NCBI GenBank assembly: GCA_018882975.1
Contig: VEQZ01000003.1
Span: 1 to 48,056, forward strand
Origin: Rhodocyclaceae bacterium
GTDB lineage: Bacteria > Pseudomonadota > Gammaproteobacteria > Burkholderiales > UBA3065
Length of the DNA: 48,056 bases
Direction: 5' to 3'
The notes beneath the pieces were generated by a model that did not search any database, was not told the origin of the DNA, and was given only the letters and a program-made list of their open reading frames with translations. A program made the position numbers and the translations under genes. Shown here one piece after another: positions 1-7,758 of this stretch (position 1 is its first letter; every line of letters begins with the position of its first letter).

Positions 1-127
1 GGTAGACGATTTTTTCGGCGTAGTGTGGTTGAGCGTCGGTGGGGATGACGGTGTGGTCGGCGATGATGTAGTCGATGTAGTCGGCCCCCATGGTGCCGGG
101 GTAGCCCAGATAGTTGACCTGAATCGG
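1..127. repeat. Exact direct repeat, copy in GT41 module 3 (probably continues beyond the window edge)
   Basis: 1-127 is identical to 4363-4489. The offset of 4362 keeps the frame; first mismatch is C128 vs T4490. Confidence 0.95.
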
Positions 128-3100
128 CGCCGCACGCAGGGCCATGATGCCCGGCCGGCACCCGGTGGTGTAACCGCCGAGGTCGACGAGTATGTCGACG
201 CCGAGTTCGCGCACCCGCTCTGCAGCGGCCTCGTTGCTCAGCCCGCCGATGCGCTCGAAGCGGTCGAAGTCGCCCAGCATCTTGCGGCGGATCGGGCTGC
301 CATCGTCAAGGCCGATGTCAAAAGCGAACAACTCGAAGCGCTCACGGCAATGGGCGGCGAAGATCCCAACCATGAGCCGGGCTACCGCATGGTCATTGAA
401 GTCTGCCGAGAGGTAGCCAAGCCGTATGCGCGCTGACCGCTGGCGCGCGGAGAAATCCGGGTAAGCCCGCACGCCACCGGACTTGTGCCCCTCGAACGAC
501 ATCGCCACCTGCAGTTGCAGGTCCGGGTCGTCGCTCATGTTGAGCATGCGGAACGGCTGAATGCTGCGCTTGGCGGCGCGGATGCTGTTTTCGCAGCGCG
601 CCACCACCTGCGGCAGGTCGCCCCAGGTGCAGCCGCGCATGCGGGCGAAGATGCACTCGCCGAGCAGAAAGCCGCCTTCGGGGTTGAGTGCGAAGCCCCG
701 GTCGAAGCTCTCGGCGGCCTCACCGAGCCGTCCGGTCTCGAGCAGCAGATTGCCGCGCTCCCAATGGGCGGCTGCCGAGTCGGGCTTGATCTCCACGGCG
801 CGTTCGTAGCAGGCCAGCGCCTCTGCCGGCCGCTTGAGTTCGCGCAGCGTGTTGCCCTTGTTGACTTCGGTCTCGAGCAGGCCCGGGCGGATCGTCGATG
901 CACGTTCGTAGCTCGCGAGCGCCTCCTCGAGCCGCTTGAGCCGGCTCAGCGCGTTGCCACGATTGAGCCAAGCCTCGAAGTAGTCGGGTTTAATGGCGAC
1001 CGCTGCGTCGTAACTCGCGAGAGCTTCCTCCCACTGCTCCGCCGCGGCCTGCGCCATCCCGCGGTTGCACAGGGCCAGCGCGTCACCCGGCCGCAAGCCG
1101 AGCGCCTGGTCATAGCTGGCGATCGCCTCGCGTGCGCGGCCCAGTGCGCGCAGCGTGTTGCCCAGATTCAGATGAGCTTCCACGTAGTCCGGATTGAGGC
1201 GGGCGGCCTTGCCGTAGCTCTCCGCGGCTTCCGCTGGTTTTCCCGCCTTGGCCAAGGCGTTGCCGAGGTTGTAATGGGCGCCGGCATCGTCTGGGTTGAT
1301 TTCGAGGGCTCTGCGGATGCTGGCGATGCCGGCTTCGACCTGACCCGTCTGTTTGAGGGTAAGGCCGAGCAGGTGCAGGCCGTCGAAGTGCTCAGGCTCG
1401 AGCGCGAGAATCTCGCTGTAGATCCGCTGTGCAGCTTCGATGGCGCCGCCGCGATGCAGTCGCATGGCCTCGCGCAGGCGCGACTGGATCAGGGTCGCTT
1501 GCCCGGTGGCGGTCGCGGCTGGTGCCACGCCGCTGGTGCTGGCGGCGCTGGCTTTCGGCGGCGCAGTCGGGCGGGGGGGCTCGCTCGGCTCGTGGGGCAT
1601 GGTGCCACCGGGGCGCTTGGGCCCGGTCTGCGGCTCCGGCGGGGAGGCCTCGTCGACGCGGATGTTGGCCGGAGGTTTGCCTTCGAGGTGGGTGGCCAGC
1701 ATGCGCTCGAAGGCGGTCTCGAGGTTGCGGGTGTAGCGGGCAGTGTCGAACAGCGGTGCGGTGAGTCGGTTGCGCTCGAGCCTTTGGCGCAGTTGCGCCA
1801 GTTCTGCAGGGTTTCGGGCGAGGTGGATGGCGAGGGCTTGATACTCGTCCAGCGAGCGGGTGACGAGTTCCGGCAGACCGGCGGCGCGCAGCAGGCTCGC
1901 CGCCACCCGGCCCGGAAAGCTGTTGCCGAGCGCCGTCAATAGCGGCAGGCCGGCCCAGAGCGCATCGCTGGCGGTGGTATGGGCGTTGTACGGCAGAGTG
2001 TCGAGAAAGAGGTCCGCGAGCCGATGCCGCGCCAGATGTTCCTCGAGCTTCATGCGCGGCGCGAACACCACCCTGGCCGGATCCACGCCGCGGCGCGCGG
2101 CTTCGCGCTGCAGGTTGGGCGCCACGAAGCGGTTGTCGGCCAGCAACCAGAGCACGCTGCCTTCCACCTGCGCGAGGATGCGCATCCACACATCGAAGGT
2201 TTCCGGCGTGATCTTGTAATTGTTGTTGAAGCAGCAGAACACAAAACCGTCCGCGGGCAGGCCGCAGGTCTGCCGGTCGAACTGCTTTTCCGAAGGGCGC
2301 CGCGTCGTGTCGGTCGGTTGGTAACTGTCCGGCAGCCAGGCCACGGCTTCGTCATACCAGCGCGTGCTGGTCGGCGGGATCACTGTGTGATCGGCGATGA
2401 TGTAATCGATGCACGGCGTGCCGAGGGTTCCGGGGAAGCCGAGGAAGTTGACCTGCACCGGTGCCGGGCGCAAGGCGAAGACGCCGTGTCGCGGCTGCCC
2501 GAAGTAGCCATTGAGGTTGATCAGGATGTCGATGCCGGCGTCGCGGACGCGCTGCGCGATGGCGGCATCGCTGAGTTGCCGAATGTCGAGGATGCGACCG
2601 CCAAACGCTGCTTCGATGCGCTTTCGGCGCGGGCTGCCATCGTTGAAGCCATTGTCGAAGGCAAAGATCTCGAAGCGCGCGGCGTCGTGGCGCTCCCAGA
2701 CCTCGGTCAGCAGTATCGAGGTGGCCTGTTCGCGAAATTCGCCGCACAGATAGCCGATGCGGATACGGCCATGCTGGCGCGGCGGCAAGGGCGCGGCCGG
2801 CGTGCCCGCCTTGAACACGGTGTTTGCGTAGACCTGGGCGCAGCGCTGCAACAGTTCTTCTGAGTCGCCGATGCCCTGGTAGCCGAACGGTGTGGCCATC
2901 TGTTCGGACCGGGCAAAACCGGCGTCGATGCGCGCGCGCAACGCGTCGAGACCCGACCAGTCGCACATCAGCATCTTGGCGTGCAGCAGCCGACCAGCCA
3001 GGAACGGGTGCCCAGGGTCGAGTTCGGCGACCTTGTTGTAATGCACCACGGCCTCGACCAGGTCGCGCCCCATCTCGCAGATCGCACCGAGGTTGAAGTG

Positions 3101-5809
3101 TGCCTTCACTTCGCCCGGCGCAAACTCTATTGCGCGTTTGAAGGCCTCCCGCGCAGCGTCACGCTGCCCGGTCTCTTGAAACGCCCGGCCGCGGTTGAGG
3201 TGGGCCTCGGCGTAGCCCGGTTCGAGTTCGATCGCTTTCTCATACCACGGCAGCGCCTCCTGCCAGCGTCTCGCCTGGCTGAGGGCATTGCCGAGGTTGT
3301 AGTAGGCGGCGGCGTGCCGCGGATTGAGACCGATCGCCTTGCGGATCAGCGCTGCCGCTGCCTCCGGCGCGCCCTGCGCCATGCGGCAGACGCCGAGCAT
3401 GTGCAGGCAGTCGAACTGGTCGGGGACTTGCTGCAGCACCGTTTCGTAAAGCGCCCGGGCCTGCGCCAGATCGCCTGCGCGGTGCAGCGCAAAGGCGCGG
3501 CCGACCTGCTGAACGATTTCAGCCGGCAGCGCGTCCGCTGCGCTACTGGTGCTCGCGGTCGCGGCGGGGCCCGCCACCGTGGCTTGCGACTGGGCGGTCG
3601 GCTGGGAGGGCTTGCTCGCGTCGGTGGTGGCCGTGCCGCCGCTGGATTCGGGTGTGGGTGTGGTGGGTATTTCTGTTGGTGTGTCGAGGAGGATGTGCTC
3701 TGGGGCTTGGCCCTTGAGGTGGGTGTCGAGCATGCGCTGGAAGGCGGCTTCGAGGTTGCGGGTGAAGCGGGTGGTGTTGAAGAGGGGGGAGGTGATGCGG
3801 TTGCGGGCGAGTGTTTGGCGCAGTTGGGTGAGTTGCGTGGGGTGGGTGGCGAGTTGGATGGCGAGGGCCTGGTAGTCCTCGAGGGAGTGGGTGACGAGTT
3901 GTGGCAGGCCGACGGTTTGCAGGAGGCTGGCGGACATGCGGCCGGCGAAGCTTTTGCCGAGGCAGGTGAGGACGGGTGCGCCGCCCCAGAGGGCGTCGCT
4001 GGTGGTGGTGCCGCCGTTGAAGGGGAGGGTGTCGAGGACGAGGTCGATGAGGGCGTAGCGGGCGAGGTTGTCGGCGTAGGGCAGGCGTGGCGAGAAGACC
4101 AGGCGTTCGGGGTTGACGTGGTGCTGGCTGGCGAACTGGCGGAGGTTGCTGACTTGTGTGGGGTTGTCGTGGATGAGCCAGAGGACGCTGTGCGGGGTTT
4201 GCTGGAGGATGGACATCCAGACTTTGAAGACTTGGGGGGTGAATTTTTCTGGGCGGTTGAAGCAGCCGAAGACGACGTGGTGGTCTGGGAGGCCGAAGAA
4301 CTGTCGTGTTTTGGGTGTGGCGATTTTTTTGCTGGCGTCGTTGGCCTGGAAGCAGTCGGGGAGGTAGACGATTTTTTCGGCGTAGTGTGGTTGAGCGTCG
4401 GTGGGGATGACGGTGTGGTCGGCGATGATGTAGTCGATGTAGTCGGCCCCCATGGTGCCGGGGTAGCCCAGATAGTTGACCTGAATCGGTGCCGCCCGCA
4501 GGGCGAAGATGCCGGTGCGGCAGTTCTGCGTGAAGCCGTTGAGGTCGATCGCGATGTCGATGCCGAGTTGCCTGCAGAACCGGGCCACCTCGAGATCGCT
4601 CTTGCGCGACACATCGGCAAAGTGGTCGAACGCTGCGGCGATGCGTCTCTGCGTCGCGTCGCTGCCCGCGGTCAACGCAAAGCCGTAGACCTCGAAGCGC
4701 TCACGGTCATGCGCTTCCAGCGCCCCGGCGATCAGGAACGACACCGCGTGCTCGCGGAAGTCCGCCGAAAAGTAGGCGATCTTGATACGCGTGCCCGGTG
4801 CACGCGCGCCTGCTGCCGCAGGCAAGGGCGCGGCCGGCGCCCGCCCGCGCAGGTGGCGCTCGGCTGCCTGCCGTTGCAGTGCCGGGTCGTCCACCAGCGC
4901 CAGCAGGGCAAACGGCCGTGGCGCTGCGCCCCCGGTCTGCAAGGCGGCGAGCACCTTGGCGAGTTCGGCATCGAACCCGTCCCAGTCGCACGCCTGCCGC
5001 CTGGCGTAAGGAATCATCAGCCCGACCGCGGACACCTCGGCACCGCAGCGCAGCGCCGACCGATACCGCGCCAAGGCCTCTGCCGGGCGCTTGAGCAGCA
5101 TCAGGGCCTCGCCGGCGTTGGCCAGCACTTCGGCATCGTCCGGCTTGAGCGCCAGGCTCCGCTCGAAACTTTCGACGGCTTCGGCATGGCGCCCTAGGGT
5201 GGCGAGAACCACGCCCCGGTTGACATGCGCTTCGGCCAGCGACGGCCGCGCCCGGATCGCACCCTCGAATGCCGCCAGCGCCTCATCCAGCCGCCGGAAT
5301 CCGCGCAGGGTGTTGCCGCGATTGTGAAAAGCCTCGGCAAAGCCGGGGTCAAGCTGTGTCGCCTTCTCGAAGCAGTCGAGCGCGCGTTGCGGGTCGCCCG
5401 CCTCCTGCAGGGCGAGGCCAAGGCTGTTGTGCACACTGGCGGAGCTTGGGTCGATGTCGGCGGCCCGGGTCAGCAACTCGACGGCGCGTTGCGGCCGGCC
5501 GAGCCGGCGCTGCGCGGCGCCGGCCAGGTGCAGGCAGTCGAAATGGCGCGGATCGGCAGCCAGCACCCGCTCGCACGCCGCCAGCGCCTTGGCGAAGTCG
5601 CCGTTACGAAAACCTTGGACGGCCAAGGCGGCGATGTCCGCTGCCCCTGTGCCCGCCTGTTCCGCTGGCTGCACGCCCTTGGCTGCCGCTGCTGCCGGCA
5701 GCGCCACTGTCGTCTTGGCCGGGCTCGTCTTTGACGGGTTCGACACGGTGGCCGCTGCCGCCGCTGGCTTGGGCTTGCGGGCGGAGGGCTTGGGGTTTCT
5801 CTTGGCCAT
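1..5809 (-). CDS. Giant multi-module TPR / GT41 (O-GlcNAc transferase/SPINDLY-like) glycosyltransferase, 3' end truncated by window edge (>=1936 aa)
   Basis: ATG at 5809 (MAKRNPKPSARK...). Hand translation found no stop down to position 2, and the ORF track lists no minus-strand ORF in this frame, as expected for an ORF without a stop. Three TPR arrays (about 6, 5 and 8 repeats), each followed by GT41 motifs: RIKIAYFSADFREHAV / RIRIGYLCGEFREQAT / RIRLGYLSADFNDHAV; QVN(Y/F)LG(Y/F)PGT; FN..xK; LDTLP(F/Y)N..TT.SDALW. Confidence 0.9.
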   Translation of the reverse strand, partial: MAKRNPKPSARKPKPAAAAATVSNPSKTSPAKTTVALPAAAAAKGVQPAEQAGTGAADIAALAVQGFRNGDFAKALAACERVLAADPRHFDCLHLAGAAQRRLGRPQRAVELLTRAADIDPSSASVHNSLGLALQEAGDPQRALDCFEKATQLDPGFAEAFHNRGNTLRGFRRLDEALAAFEGAIRARPSLAEAHVNRGVVLATLGRHAEAVESFERSLALKPDDAEVLANAGEALMLLKRPAEALARYRSALRCGAEVSAVGLMIPYARRQACDWDGFDAELAKVLAALQTGGAAPRPFALLALVDDPALQRQAAERHLRGRAPAAPLPAAAGARAPGTRIKIAYFSADFREHAVSFLIAGALEAHDRERFEVYGFALTAGSDATQRRIAAAFDHFADVSRKSDLEVARFCRQLGIDIAIDLNGFTQNCRTGIFALRAAPIQVNYLGYPGTMGADYIDYIIADHTVIPTDAQPHYAEKIVYLPDCFQANDASKKIATPKTRQFFGLPDHHVVFGCFNRPEKFTPQVFKVWMSILQQTPHSVLWLIHDNPTQVSNLRQFASQHHVNPERLVFSPRLPYADNLARYALIDLVLDTLPFNGGTTTSDALWGGAPVLTCLGKSFAGRMSASLLQTVGLPQLVTHSLEDYQALAIQLATHPTQLTQLRQTLARNRITSPLFNTTRFTRNLEAAFQRMLDTHLKGQAPEHILLDTPTEIPTTPTPESSGGTATTDASKPSQPTAQSQATVAGPAATASTSSAADALPAEIVQQVGRAFALHRAGDLAQARALYETVLQQVPDQFDCLHMLGVCRMAQGAPEAAAALIRKAIGLNPRHAAAYYNLGNALSQARRWQEALPWYEKAIELEPGYAEAHLNRGRAFQETGQRDAAREAFKRAIEFAPGEVKAHFNLGAICEMGRDLVEAVVHYNKVAELDPGHPFLAGRLLHAKMLMCDWSGLDALRARIDAGFARSEQMATPFGYQGIGDSEELLQRCAQVYANTVFKAGTPAAPLPPRQHGRIRIGYLCGEFREQATSILLTEVWERHDAARFEIFAFDNGFNDGSPRRKRIEAAFGGRILDIRQLSDAAIAQRVRDAGIDILINLNGYFGQPRHGVFALRPAPVQVNFLGFPGTLGTPCIDYIIADHTVIPPTSTRWYDEAVAWLPDSYQPTDTTRRPSEKQFDRQTCGLPADGFVFCCFNNNYKITPETFDVWMRILAQVEGSVLWLLADNRFVAPNLQREAARRGVDPARVVFAPRMKLEEHLARHRLADLFLDTLPYNAHTTASDALWAGLPLLTALGNSFPGRVAASLLRAAGLPELVTRSLDEYQALAIHLARNPAELAQLRQRLERNRLTAPLFDTARYTRNLETAFERMLATHLEGKPPANIRVDEASPPEPQTGPKRPGGTMPHEPSEPPRPTAPPKASAASTSGVAPAATATGQATLIQSRLREAMRLHRGGAIEAAQRIYSEILALEPEHFDGLHLLGLTLKQTGQVEAGIASIRRALEINPDDAGAHYNLGNALAKAGKPAEAAESYGKAARLNPDYVEAHLNLGNTLRALGRAREAIASYDQALGLRPGDALALCNRGMAQAAAEQWEEALASYDAAVAIKPDYFEAWLNRGNALSRLKRLEEALASYERASTIRPGLLETEVNKGNTLRELKRPAEALACYERAVEIKPDSAAAHWERGNLLLETGRLGEAAESFDRGFALNPEGGFLLGECIFARMRGCTWGDLPQVVARCENSIRAAKRSIQPFRMLNMSDDPDLQLQVAMSFEGHKSGGVRAYPDFSARQRSARIRLGYLSADFNDHAVARLMVGIFAAHCRERFELFAFDIGLDDGSPIRRKMLGDFDRFERIGGLSNEAAAERVRELGVDILVDLGGYTTGCRPGIMALRAAPIQVNYLGYPGTMGADYIDYIIADHTVIPTDAQPHYAEKIVY
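3640..4489. repeat. Strongly G/T-skewed, duplicated tract (GRINS-like) encoding the C-terminal half of GT41 module 1
   Basis: Hand count of 3781-3840: G33 C6 T14 A7, versus G23 C16 T13 A8 in the homologous module-2 segment 1741-1800. Its right end (4363-4489) is repeated exactly at 1-127. Left boundary approximate. Confidence 0.75.
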
Positions 5810-6059: not shown

Positions 6060-6097
6060 TTGACACTGCGTCGCGCGGCAAGTCATAATCGGCGGTT
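6060..6097 (+). promoter_or_regulatory. sigma70 promoter of the tRNA-tuf operon with GC-rich discriminator
   Basis: TTGACA (6060-6065), 18 bp spacer, CATAAT (6084-6089), then CGGCGG; directly upstream of tRNA-Tyr. Confidence 0.8.
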
Positions 6098-6103
6098 TGC
6101 ACA

Positions 6104-6188
<85 letters not shown>

Positions 6189-6224
6189 GTTTTCGCAGTT
6201 TCGGTTGTTCGCAAAGCGGGCCAG

Positions 6225-6298
6225 GCGGGAGTAGTTCAATGGCAGAACCTCAGCCTTCCAAGCTGATGACGCGGGTTCGATTCCCGTCTCCCGCTCCA
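6225..6298 (+). tRNA. tRNA-Gly(TCC)
   Basis: GCGGGAG...CTCCCGC-T-CCA, anticodon loop CTTCCAA, GGTTCGATTCC; 74 nt. Confidence 0.97.
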
Positions 6299-6343
6299 AG
6301 AACCTCCCAAATGAAGTCCAGCAACGTGTAGTGACGGCTCACC

Positions 6344-6418
<75 letters not shown>

Positions 6419-7682: not shown

Positions 7683-7758
7683 AGGCCAGTAGCTCAATTG
7701 GCAGAGCGTCGGTCTCCAAAACCGAAGGTTGGGGGTTCGAGACCCTCCTGGCCTGCCA
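7683..7758 (+). tRNA. tRNA-Trp(CCA)
   Basis: AGGCCAG...CTGGCCT-G-CCA, anticodon loop CTCCAAA; usual position between tuf and secE; 76 nt. Confidence 0.96.

What the first reader, a model, noticed from the sequence alone, without database searches (positions are those of the whole stretch)
1..5809. Assembly-line-like glycosyltransferase: at least three TPR+GT41 (OGT-like) modules fused in one polypeptide, invisible in the ORF track
Seen: one uninterrupted minus-strand frame with module 1 (about 6 TPRs ~5640-5030, GT41 ~5000-3700), a P/T/S/A linker, module 2 (about 5 TPRs ~3520-3010, GT41 ~2980-1670), a second linker, and module 3 (about 8 TPRs ~1490-675, GT41 ~650 to beyond the edge). The modules are divergent paralogues, so this is not a collapsed repeat. 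Known: characterised GT41 enzymes (animal OGT, plant SEC/SPY, Xanthomonas OGT) carry one TPR array and one catalytic unit. Inference: a protein of about 2150 aa or more with tandem complete units could add different sugars sequentially or serve different protein substrates through distinct TPR arrays, i.e. a modular protein-glycosylation machine.
Basis: partly seen in the sequence, partly recalled or inferred. Interest (0 to 1): 0.85.

Follow-up and report, generated by a model that had tools for sequence, protein, structure and literature searches.

The report
Three-unit OGT-like protein glycosyltransferase gene
One long bacterial gene strings together at least three repeat-plus-enzyme units related to the human sugar-adding enzyme OGT; such multi-unit genes turn out to be widespread in sequence databases but none has been studied, and here two different subtypes of the enzyme unit are joined in one protein.

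Summary
Window 2..5809 (minus strand) is one uninterrupted frame of 1936 codons. It holds two complete TPR+GT41 units and the TPR array plus N-lobe of a third, cut by the contig edge.

Caveat: the contig's first 127 bases exactly repeat 4363-4489 in unit 1. A second contig pair overlaps by exactly 127, so the assembly broke at a k=127 repeat. The end of unit 3 and the true unit number are unknown.

The architecture is not rare. Of 120 listed homologues of 1064-3388 aa, 69 have two, 23 three, 17 four and 1 five units. Of 37 longer ones, 28 have four to seven. One four-unit protein comes from a 3.13-Mb Chlorobium contig. Four literature searches found no study of multi-unit GT41. This scan noted two-unit GT41 proteins before on other DNA.

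New here: unit 2 belongs to a conserved "EQ-type" GT41 subfamily. Glu/Gln replace the Asp/His that human OGT needs for Ser/Thr glycosylation, while the donor site is canonical. Units 1 and 3 are ordinary "DH-type".

Substrate unknown. No feature of a sequential assembly line was found. Verdict: new variant of a known kind, moderate interest.

The parts
2..5809 (-). Single open reading frame of 1936 codons, ATG at 5809, 3'-open at the contig edge; multi-unit TPR-GT41 protein (P0001)
   Evidence: third-position GC 0.83 overall
5630..5809 (-). N-terminal Lys/Pro/Ala-rich low-complexity tail (residues 1-60). No Shine-Dalgarno-like motif is evident upstream, so the exact start is uncertain
5030..5629 (-). 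TPR array of unit 1 (residues 61-260, about 6 repeats)
   Evidence: aligns to consensus TPR proteins and to the hOGT TPRs
3695..5026 (-). GT41 catalytic domain of unit 1, DH-type. It has S348/D350/H354 and K522, with N581 and G600 at the hOGT H901 and H920 columns
   Evidence: (XcOGT E 1.8e-76)
3524..3694 (-). Pro/Thr/Ser/Ala-rich linker 1 (residues 706-762), in frame, no stop
3005..3523 (-). TPR array of unit 2 (residues 763-935, 5 repeats)
1664..3001 (-). GT41 catalytic domain of unit 2, EQ-type. C1022/E1024/Q1028 replace the near-invariant S/D/H, and N1098 and F1103 also differ. The C-lobe is canonical (K1199, H1258, H1277, T1278, T1279, D1282)
   Evidence: (XcOGT E 9.4e-87)
1490..1663 (-). 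Pro/Ala/Ser/Thr-rich linker 2 (residues 1383-1440)
668..1489 (-). TPR array of unit 3 (residues 1441-1714, about 8 repeats)
2..667 (-). N-lobe of the GT41 catalytic domain of unit 3, DH-type (S1801/D1803/H1807). It is cut by the contig edge and the C-lobe is not assembled
1..127 (.). Terminal 127 nt, 100% identical to 4363-4489. This is the assembly-graph branch point (k=127) where the contig stops
4363..4489 (.). Copy of the 127-nt exact repeat inside unit 1 (encodes APIQVNYLGYPGTMGADYIDYIIADHTVIPTDAQPHYAEKIVY)

Best explanation
This is a genuine single gene for a cytoplasmic, multi-unit, OGT-like (CAZy GT41) protein glycosyltransferase. Each unit is a self-contained XcOGT-like enzyme: a TPR array that selects a protein substrate, joined directly to a two-lobed GT-B catalytic domain that binds a nucleotide sugar. 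The units are strung together by flexible Pro/Thr/Ser/Ala linkers.

The protein joins two GT41 subtypes. Units 1 and 3 are ordinary 'DH-type'. Unit 2 is a conserved 'EQ-type', with Glu and Gln at the hOGT D554 and H558 positions.

Most likely the units work in parallel on one or several target proteins. Each would place a sugar on its own set of sites, possibly with different acceptor or donor preference, and fusion would give co-expression and avidity on repetitive targets.

Shown: the reading frame, the domain composition, the active-site residue patterns and the spread of the architecture.

Inferred: catalytic activity, cytoplasmic location (I saw no signal-peptide-like or hydrophobic stretch at the N-terminus on reading it, but ran no predictor), parallel action and the target.

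The gene is incomplete. Unit 3 runs into an exact repeat of unit 1 at the contig edge, so the real protein has at least three units and may have more.
For: Frame and domains:
- Uninterrupted frame with Pfam GT41 E 4.6e-203 in 5 stretches, plus TPR families.
- Three catalytic-unit hits with my own HMM.
- Each unit matches solved GT41 structures. Unit 1 and unit 2 match XcOGT at 1.8e-76 and 9.4e-87 in one continuous stretch, with no intervening domain. Unit 3's N-lobe matches hOGT at 9.4e-32.
- The catalytic Lys (hOGT K842, named as catalytic in PMC4683255, passages) is present as K522 and K1199.
- Coding signal is constant through the linkers.
- No exact repeat of 20 nt or more lies at the unit junctions.

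Architecture is real elsewhere:
- Of the 120 homologues listed, 69 have 2 units, 23 have 3, 17 have 4 and 1 has 5. Five have 1 unit and 5 have unequal lobe counts (cut or partial units).
- Of 37 homologues of 3389-5000 aa, 28 have 4-7 units.
- One 4-unit protein (P0007) is from a 3.13-Mb Chlorobium phaeobacteroides contig.

EQ-type is a maintained subfamily, not decay:
- 31 of 839 units examined are EQ-type. 27 are in single-unit proteins; the best, P0339, is 66% identical to unit 2.
- They share a covarying signature (E, Q, T, N, F), and the donor-site columns are canonical in 29-30 of the 31.
- Four proteins carry a DH-type unit followed by an EQ-type unit: this one, P0099, P0107 and P0300.
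- P0099 unit 2 is sister to unit 2 with support 0.989-0.994.

Precedent: a bacterial TPR-GT41 with a proven protein target exists. Synechococcus Ogt glycosylates a pilin (abstract in the listing).
Against: - No biochemical evidence exists for any multi-unit GT41.
- TtOGT, a solved bacterial GT41, showed no in vitro activity on the peptides tested (PMC4683255 passages).
- In hOGT, changes at D554 and H558 reduce or abolish Ser/Thr glycosylation (PMC4840301 passages). Unit 2 may therefore not be a Ser/Thr O-glycosyltransferase at all.
- Unit 1 has Asn at the hOGT H901 column, which only 1 of 294 other units shares. H901A abolishes hOGT activity.
- Unit 3 is half a unit, and its continuation enters a repeat of unit 1. 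The junction could reflect a strain variant or a recombinant.
- No genomic neighbour points to a substrate. The gene sits at a contig edge beside tRNA genes and tuf.
- No Shine-Dalgarno-like sequence precedes the ATG.
Confidence: 0.75

Rival explanations
1. Sequential assembly line. The units act in a fixed order on the same substrate. Each adds a different sugar, or hands the product on, so that a defined multi-sugar pattern is built.
For: The units differ at acceptor-side residues (unit 2 is EQ-type) and at donor-side residues (unit 1 has N581 and G600). The order DH-type then EQ-type recurs in 4 proteins. In relative G028, three separate genes whose GT41 domains resemble unit 1 lie among GT9, GT2 and PLOD-type glycosyltransferase genes, so glycan elaboration may accompany GT41 action.
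Against: Pfam finds no carrier, tethering or docking domain, only TPR-type and GT41 families. Each unit has its own TPR array, which is the substrate-selecting part in OGT. The GT41 enzymes whose activity I saw described modify protein side chains; I saw none that extends a glycan. Among 292 units of multi-unit proteins, 123 have their closest relative in the same protein. That points to simple tandem duplication rather than ordered specialised modules.
Confidence: 0.1
2. One or more units are non-catalytic. Unit 2, and perhaps unit 1, would serve as a substrate-holding or nucleotide-sugar-sensing scaffold for the active unit(s).
For: Unit 2 lacks the D554 and H558 equivalents whose mutation cripples Ser/Thr glycosylation in hOGT. 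Unit 1 lacks the H901 equivalent.
Against: 27 of the 31 EQ-type units stand alone in single-unit proteins, so the type must have a function of its own. Its replacement residues are invariant, and its donor-site columns are kept in 29-30 of 31. Those conservation features are typical of a working enzyme.
Confidence: 0.12
3. Assembly artefact. The three units are separate or fewer genes, wrongly joined or collapsed by the metagenome assembler.
For: The genome is a 106-contig bin. The contig ends in a 127-nt exact repeat of itself at the assembler's k. Paralogous repeats invite chimeras.
Against: The joins between units lie in unique sequence, since no exact repeat of 20 nt or more occurs other than the terminal one. 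The frame and third-position GC are continuous. The units are only 40-50% identical. The same architecture occurs on contigs of up to 3.13 Mb.
Confidence: 0.04

Closest known systems
Xanthomonas campestris XcOGT (XCC0866; PDB 2JLB, 2VSN, 2VSY)
   Same: It is the best solved match of units 1 and 2 (E 1.8e-76 and 9.4e-87). The alignment is one continuous stretch from the TPR-like region through both catalytic lobes, without the metazoan intervening domain. The catalytic Lys is conserved, and the PYNAHTTASDALW stretch is identical in unit 2.
   Different: XcOGT is a single unit of 568 aa; here at least three are fused. Unit 2 has Gln where XcOGT has His218 (position counted from the alignment). 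The biological substrate of XcOGT is, to my recollection, also unknown.
Human OGT (PDB 3PE3 and others) and plant SPINDLY (7Y4I, 8DTF)
   Same: GT41 fold and a TPR array that precedes the catalytic domain. K842, T921/T922 and D925 equivalents are present in units 1 and 2. The S552/D554/H558 motif is present in units 1 and 3.
   Different: They have one catalytic unit per chain, and hOGT has an intervening domain. Unit 2 replaces D554 and H558 by E and Q. Unit 1 replaces H901 and H920 by N and G.
Multi-unit TPR-GT41 proteins in databases, e.g. Chlorobium phaeobacteroides 'O-linked N-acetylglucosamine transferase family protein' (P0007, 3035 aa, 4 units), Pelodictyon MAG (P0243, 4489 aa, 6 units), Thiorhodococcus fuscus (P0263, 3584 aa, 5 units)
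   Same: The same beads-on-a-string architecture of repeated TPR+GT41 units, aligning over 96-98% of the query (P0007, P0243) and 95% (P0263).
   Different: Identity is only 29-41%, and no close orthologue was found: the best is 39-45%. GT41 was found in 1 of 6 genomes of the same genus. None of these proteins is characterised as far as my searches show.
Two-unit DH-EQ proteins P0099, P0107, P0300 (1384-1465 aa)
   Same: A DH-type unit followed by an EQ-type unit, as in units 1-2 here. P0099 unit 2 is the sister of unit 2 (support 0.989-0.994).
   Different: They stop after two units. This protein carries at least one further DH-type unit.
Synechococcus elongatus Ogt (pilin glycosylation) and HMW1C-type GT41 enzymes acting on adhesins
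   Same: Bacterial GT41 enzymes with demonstrated protein substrates destined for the cell surface (abstracts in the listings).
   Different: They are single-unit enzymes. HMW1C-type enzymes lack TPRs (recalled). No pilin or adhesin gene lies beside the window gene.

Membership tests
CAZy GT41 / Pfam PF13844 (OGT-like glycosyltransferases) | Significant match to the family profile above the curated cut-off | tested here: met
   PF13844 E 4.6e-203, 675.8 bits against a cut-off of 25, in 5 stretches. Five separate matches over the cut-off lie in the window ORF.
CAZy GT41 / Pfam PF13844 (OGT-like glycosyltransferases) | Two-lobed catalytic domain (N-Cat and C-Cat) homologous to solved GT41 structures | tested here: met
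   Units 1 and 2 align over both lobes to XcOGT, hOGT, TtOGT and SPINDLY. For unit 3 only the N-lobe is on the contig. This was tested by sequence only; no structure was predicted.
CAZy GT41 / Pfam PF13844 (OGT-like glycosyltransferases) | Catalytic lysine (hOGT K842) and phosphate/ribose-binding T921, T922, D925 | tested here: met
   Unit 1 has K522, T601, T602 and D605. Unit 2 has K1199, T1278, T1279 and D1282. Unit 3 cannot be tested because its C-lobe is missing.
CAZy GT41 / Pfam PF13844 (OGT-like glycosyltransferases) | N-Cat motif S552-x-D554-x3-H558 needed for Ser/Thr glycosylation in hOGT | tested here: inconclusive
   Met in unit 1 (S348, D350, H354) and unit 3 (S1801, D1803, H1807). 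Not met in unit 2 (C1022, E1024, Q1028). The role of these residues is taken from PMC4840301 passages.
CAZy GT41 / Pfam PF13844 (OGT-like glycosyltransferases) | TPR array directly N-terminal to the catalytic domain | tested here: met
   All three units have one. TPR families match at E down to 1.8e-104; the arrays lie at residues 61-260, 763-935 and 1441-1714.
CAZy GT41 / Pfam PF13844 (OGT-like glycosyltransferases) | Transfer of a sugar from a nucleotide sugar to a protein side chain | not testable with these tools
   Needs enzyme assays and glycoproteomics.
Modular assembly-line enzymes (NRPS/PKS-like logic) | Carrier or tethering domain that passes the growing product from module to module | tested here: not met
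   Pfam finds only TPR-type repeats and GT41 in 1936 residues. The linkers are 55-60-residue low-complexity stretches.
Modular assembly-line enzymes (NRPS/PKS-like logic) | Collinearity: the order of modules dictates the order of chemical steps | not testable with these tools
   The only hint is that the order DH-type then EQ-type recurs in 4 proteins.
EQ-type GT41 subfamily (defined here) | Glu at the D554 column, Gln at H558, Thr at T560, Asn and Phe at two further N-lobe columns, with a canonical C-lobe | tested here: met
   Unit 2 has E1024, Q1028, T1030, N1098 and F1103. The subfamily comprises 31 of 839 units examined, and E, Q and T are invariant in all 31. The sample came from searches seeded with this protein, so it is not unbiased.

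The most novel reading that the evidence does not exclude
The fusion is a dedicated machine for decorating giant repetitive surface proteins. Several TPR arrays would grip successive repeats while DH-type and EQ-type active sites lay down two chemically different modifications in one pass, such as different sugars or different acceptor residues.

The same genome encodes a giant ALTTAQ-repeat protein. It is at least 2879 aa on C12 and at least 704 aa on C59, and these are probably one gene. Such genes sit directly beside a GT41 gene in three genomes from three genera. The EQ-type site would then be a new GT41 chemistry.
Probability: 0.12. Interest if true: 0.7.

Novelty: new variant of a known kind. 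Interest (0 to 1): 0.4.

Why it matters
Every GT41 enzyme I found solved or characterised has one catalytic unit. The searches here show that bacteria commonly fuse two to seven such units in one chain. A distinct, conserved EQ-type active site exists both alone and fused behind a DH-type unit.

If the units have different donor or acceptor specificities, these proteins would be ready-made multi-specific protein glycosylation enzymes. They would also offer a route to the unknown substrates of bacterial OGT relatives.

For this window the value is as a clean example with well-diverged units (40-50% identity), which suits unit-by-unit expression. It is not a unique object.

Tried and rejected
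1. Finding the missing end of unit 3.
- tblastn of all three units against the whole bin found no further C-lobe apart from a separate gene on C59.
- No contig end overlaps the ORF.
- A search restricted to proteins under 1064 aa with the unit-3 region gave nothing above 44% identity, so no fragment of the same gene is in that database.

2. Sequencing runs.
- Only one run held 5% of the sampled words.
- Laying it gave short contigs of relatives, mostly 151-313 nt.
- It gave no information on the contig edge, the habitat or the strain.

3. Synteny.
- In congeners G006 and G004 the DNA before tRNA-Tyr matches no G000 contig by nucleotide search.
- In G006 it encodes Rieske, cytochrome b, cytochrome c1 and a GST.
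- None of the 10 ORFs I translated from the two loci, including a 434-aa plus-strand ORF of G004, found a match in the G000 bin.
- The minus-strand G004 ORFs sent to Pfam matched nothing; the plus-strand ones were not sent.
- The neighbouring contig therefore could not be identified this way.

4. Flagellin as neighbour.
- Flagellin and FliD lie on contig C100 (9.2 kb).
- The five longest ORFs of that contig include no GT41, and the genome-wide GT41 search found none there.

5. ALTTAQ-repeat protein as substrate of the window enzyme.
- The GT41 units that sit beside ALTTAQ genes in G000 (C59), G028 and G031 form their own clade (support 0.946), apart from units 1-3.
- The link to the window gene is therefore only 'same genome'.

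6. 'Dead module' reading of unit 2. Weakened by the discovery of the conserved stand-alone EQ-type subfamily.

7. A genome-contig scan with the ALTTAQ protein returned one locus only.

8. Literature.
- No paper on multi-unit GT41.
- None containing 'ALTTAQ'.
- Supplements were not consulted.

9. Not run: structure prediction, complex prediction, metagenome-contig scan.

Full report
**Observation**

The window starts at base 1 of a 48-kb contig of a 106-contig, 1.95-Mb genome bin (91% complete). With open-ended frames allowed, the minus strand carries one ORF, 2..5809. It has 1936 codons, an ATG at 5809 and no stop before the contig edge.

Pfam scores Glyco_transf_41 at E 4.6e-203 in five stretches, plus a long list of TPR families. 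I built an HMM of the catalytic domain from units 1 and 2 and a paralogue on contig C59. It finds three units at residues 262-719, 937-1400 and 1719-1936. The last covers only HMM positions 5-222 of 461, so it is the N-lobe.

Third-position GC is 0.78-0.88 in every segment, including the two Pro/Thr/Ser/Ala linkers. Neighbouring tuf is 0.80 and rpoB 0.89. The units are 40-50% identical over trimmed catalytic columns. This is not a collapsed repeat.

**The contig edge**

The first 127 nt of the window are 100% identical to 4363-4489 inside unit 1. Identity drops to roughly 70% from position 128 on. This is the only exact repeat of 20 nt or more in the ORF.

Elsewhere in the bin, contigs C23 and C42 overlap by exactly 127 nt. 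The assembler therefore very likely used k=127, and the contig stops at a graph branch.

Three things follow:
- Unit 3 shares at least 127 nt with unit 1, and what comes after is unknown.
- The unit number is 'two complete plus one half, possibly more'.
- The joins unit 1-unit 2 and unit 2-unit 3 lie in unique sequence and are as reliable as the rest of the assembly.

No other contig holds the missing C-lobe. The shortest contig in the bin is 2677 nt, so a short piece could have been dropped. Public reads did not help: one run held 5% of the sampled words, and only as short contigs of relatives.

**What each unit is**

Units 1 and 2 match Xanthomonas XcOGT best, at E 1.8e-76 and 9.4e-87. The match is one continuous stretch from the TPR-like region through both lobes, without the metazoan intervening domain. 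They then match human OGT, TtOGT and SPINDLY. The unit-3 N-lobe matches hOGT at 9.4e-32.

I aligned 298 catalytic units from this protein, C59 and the 120 homologues.
- Units 1 and 3 carry the near-invariant N-lobe motif: S348/D350/H354 and S1801/D1803/H1807. By the printed alignments, this motif is hOGT S552/D554/H558 and XcOGT H218.
- Unit 2 has C1022, E1024 and Q1028 there, plus N1098 and F1103 at two further near-invariant columns. Its C-lobe is fully canonical.
- Unit 1 deviates in the C-lobe. It has N581 at the H901 column (248 of 294 others have His, 1 has Asn) and G600 at the H920 column (217 have His, 68 have Gly).

In hOGT, D554A and H558A reduce Ser/Thr glycosylation, and the D554H/H558D swap abolishes it. 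K842M, K898A and H901A also abolish it (PMC4840301, passages). K842 is named the catalytic lysine in PMC4683255 (passages). K842M, Q839A, K898A and D925A mutants are reported in PMC2556091 (passages).

**Unit 2 is not a decayed copy**

A profile-free search of 1.84 billion cluster representatives with the unit-2 catalytic domain gave 19,074 proteins at E<=1e-30.
- 31 of 839 units have Glu and Gln at these two columns.
- 27 of the 31 are the sole unit of proteins of 637-937 aa. The best, P0339, is 66% identical to unit 2.
- 4 are the second unit behind a DH-type unit: this protein, P0099, P0107 and P0300.
- Within the 31, E, Q and the following Thr are invariant. Asn and Phe at the two other columns occur in 26 and 29. 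The donor-site columns are canonical in 29-30, and 24 at the Q839 column.
- P0099 unit 2 is sister to unit 2 with support 0.989-0.994.

This is the pattern of a maintained subfamily with a remodelled acceptor side, which I call EQ-type. The sample is biased towards relatives of this protein.

**How common the architecture is**

Among the 120 best homologues of 1064-3388 aa:
- 69 have two units, 23 three, 17 four, 1 five and 5 one.
- 5 have unequal lobe counts (cut or partial units).

Among 37 homologues of 3389-5000 aa:
- 6 have four units, 18 five, 3 six and 1 seven.
- 7 have one and 2 have none.

Source names include Chlorobium phaeobacteroides (3035 aa, on a 3.13-Mb contig), Pelodictyon, Methylococcales, Magnetococcales, Desulfobacterales, Cyanobacteria, Hyphomicrobiales and Thiorhodococcus fuscus.

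Of 292 units in multi-unit proteins, 123 have their nearest relative in the same protein. The median of the highest within-protein identity is 65%. Tandem internal duplication is therefore the usual origin, and this protein's units are more diverged than most.

The criterion 'characterised' is not: four full-text searches found no paper on multi-unit GT41. Earlier notes of this scan recorded two-unit GT41 proteins beside pilin or flagellin genes on other DNA.

**Distribution and context**

No close orthologue exists in the protein database; the best identity is 39-45%.

PF13844 was found in 1 of 6 genomes of the same genus. G006 has one 881-aa frame. It was not found in G001-G005, which are 94, 82, 98, 79 and 82% complete.

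Upstream of the gene lie a strong promoter-like site, tRNA-Tyr/Gly/Thr, tuf, tRNA-Trp and, judged by ORF sizes alone, the rpoB-rpoC region.

In two congeners the DNA before tRNA-Tyr matches no G000 contig by nucleotide search. In G006 it encodes Rieske, cytochrome b, cytochrome c1 and a GST. None of the ORFs I translated from either locus has a match in this bin. The GT41 gene therefore lies at a synteny break. Its codon composition is host-like.

In relative G028, three separate ~830-846-aa ORFs carrying GT41 domains like unit 1 lie among GT9, GT2 and PLOD-type glycosyltransferase genes, with an IS between them.

**Substrate leads**

The genome has flagellin and FliD on C100. None of the five ORFs scanned on that contig is a GT41, and the genome-wide GT41 search found none there.

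On C59 a TPR-GT41-GT4 fusion (1121 aa) directly follows, on the same strand, an ALTTAQ-repeat protein (PF20080, 13 repeats) whose frame is open to the contig end. C12 begins inside another ALTTAQ frame of at least 2879 aa on the same strand, so both are probably one giant gene.

ALTTAQ repeats were found in 3 of 31 related genomes. In 3 of the 4 ALTTAQ loci I examined a GT41 gene is the immediate neighbour: G000, G028 and a Limnohabitans MAG. In G004 it is not.

Those three GT41 units form a clade (support 0.946) separate from units 1-3. The ALTTAQ partner is therefore the C59 enzyme. The window enzyme may share the target, but nothing shows it.

**Mechanism and verdict**

The best reading is a real, cytoplasmic, multi-unit OGT-like protein glycosyltransferase. 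Its units act in parallel, each guided by its own TPR array, and it combines DH-type and EQ-type active sites.

A sequential assembly line is not excluded, but it lacks any defining feature such as a carrier domain.

An assembly artefact is unlikely for the unit joins but real for the 3' end.

I rate it a new variant of a known kind, interest 0.4. No structure or complex prediction was run.

Noticed in passing
G000 contig C59:51844-57126 and contig C12:1-8637 (outside the window); loci L028, L031, L032: A giant ALTTAQ-repeat (PF20080) protein has dozens of A-L-T-T-x-Q motifs and a C-terminal Asp/Gly-rich part. It is at least 2879 aa on C12 and at least 704 aa on C59, probably one gene split by the assembly. 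It lies directly upstream of a TPR-GT41-GT4 fusion gene. ALTTAQ genes also directly adjoin a GT41 gene in G028 and in a Limnohabitans MAG, and the three adjacent GT41 units form one clade (support 0.946). This is a likely enzyme-substrate pair. No paper contains the word ALTTAQ.
   Followed up: partly
window 1-127 and 4363-4489; contigs C23/C42: Contig ends overlap other sequence by exactly 127 nt in two places of the bin, which reveals the assembler's k. Contig breaks at paralogous GT41 sequence may hide further units.
   Followed up: yes
L024 (G006:C1:52797-64000), L025 (G004:C38:211000-222460) versus G000: In two congeners the ~3.9 kb just before tRNA-Tyr matches no G000 contig. In G006 it encodes Rieske, cytochrome b, cytochrome c1 and a GST. 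tblastn of the 10 ORFs I translated from the two loci found nothing in the G000 bin, so these genes are either in unassembled DNA next to the GT41 gene or lost.
   Followed up: partly
L035 (G028:C1:214000-233999): Three separate ~830-846-aa ORFs carry TPR-GT41 domains. Two gave identical profile scores, and an rve-type integrase gene lies between them. The cluster is embedded among GT9, GT2 and PLOD-type glycosyltransferase genes. It looks like an unfused counterpart of the multi-unit architecture.
   Followed up: partly
window 6060-6089 (+), 6104-6418, 7683-7758: A near-consensus sigma-70-like promoter (11 of 12) lies just before tRNA-Tyr, tRNA-Gly, tRNA-Thr, tuf and tRNA-Trp, divergent from the GT41 gene. 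No Shine-Dalgarno-like motif precedes the GT41 ATG.
   Followed up: no
L029 (G000 contig C100:5338-6174): A MafB19-like/cytidine deaminase-family protein (278 aa) is encoded between the flagellin gene and a ComEC-like competence gene.
   Followed up: no
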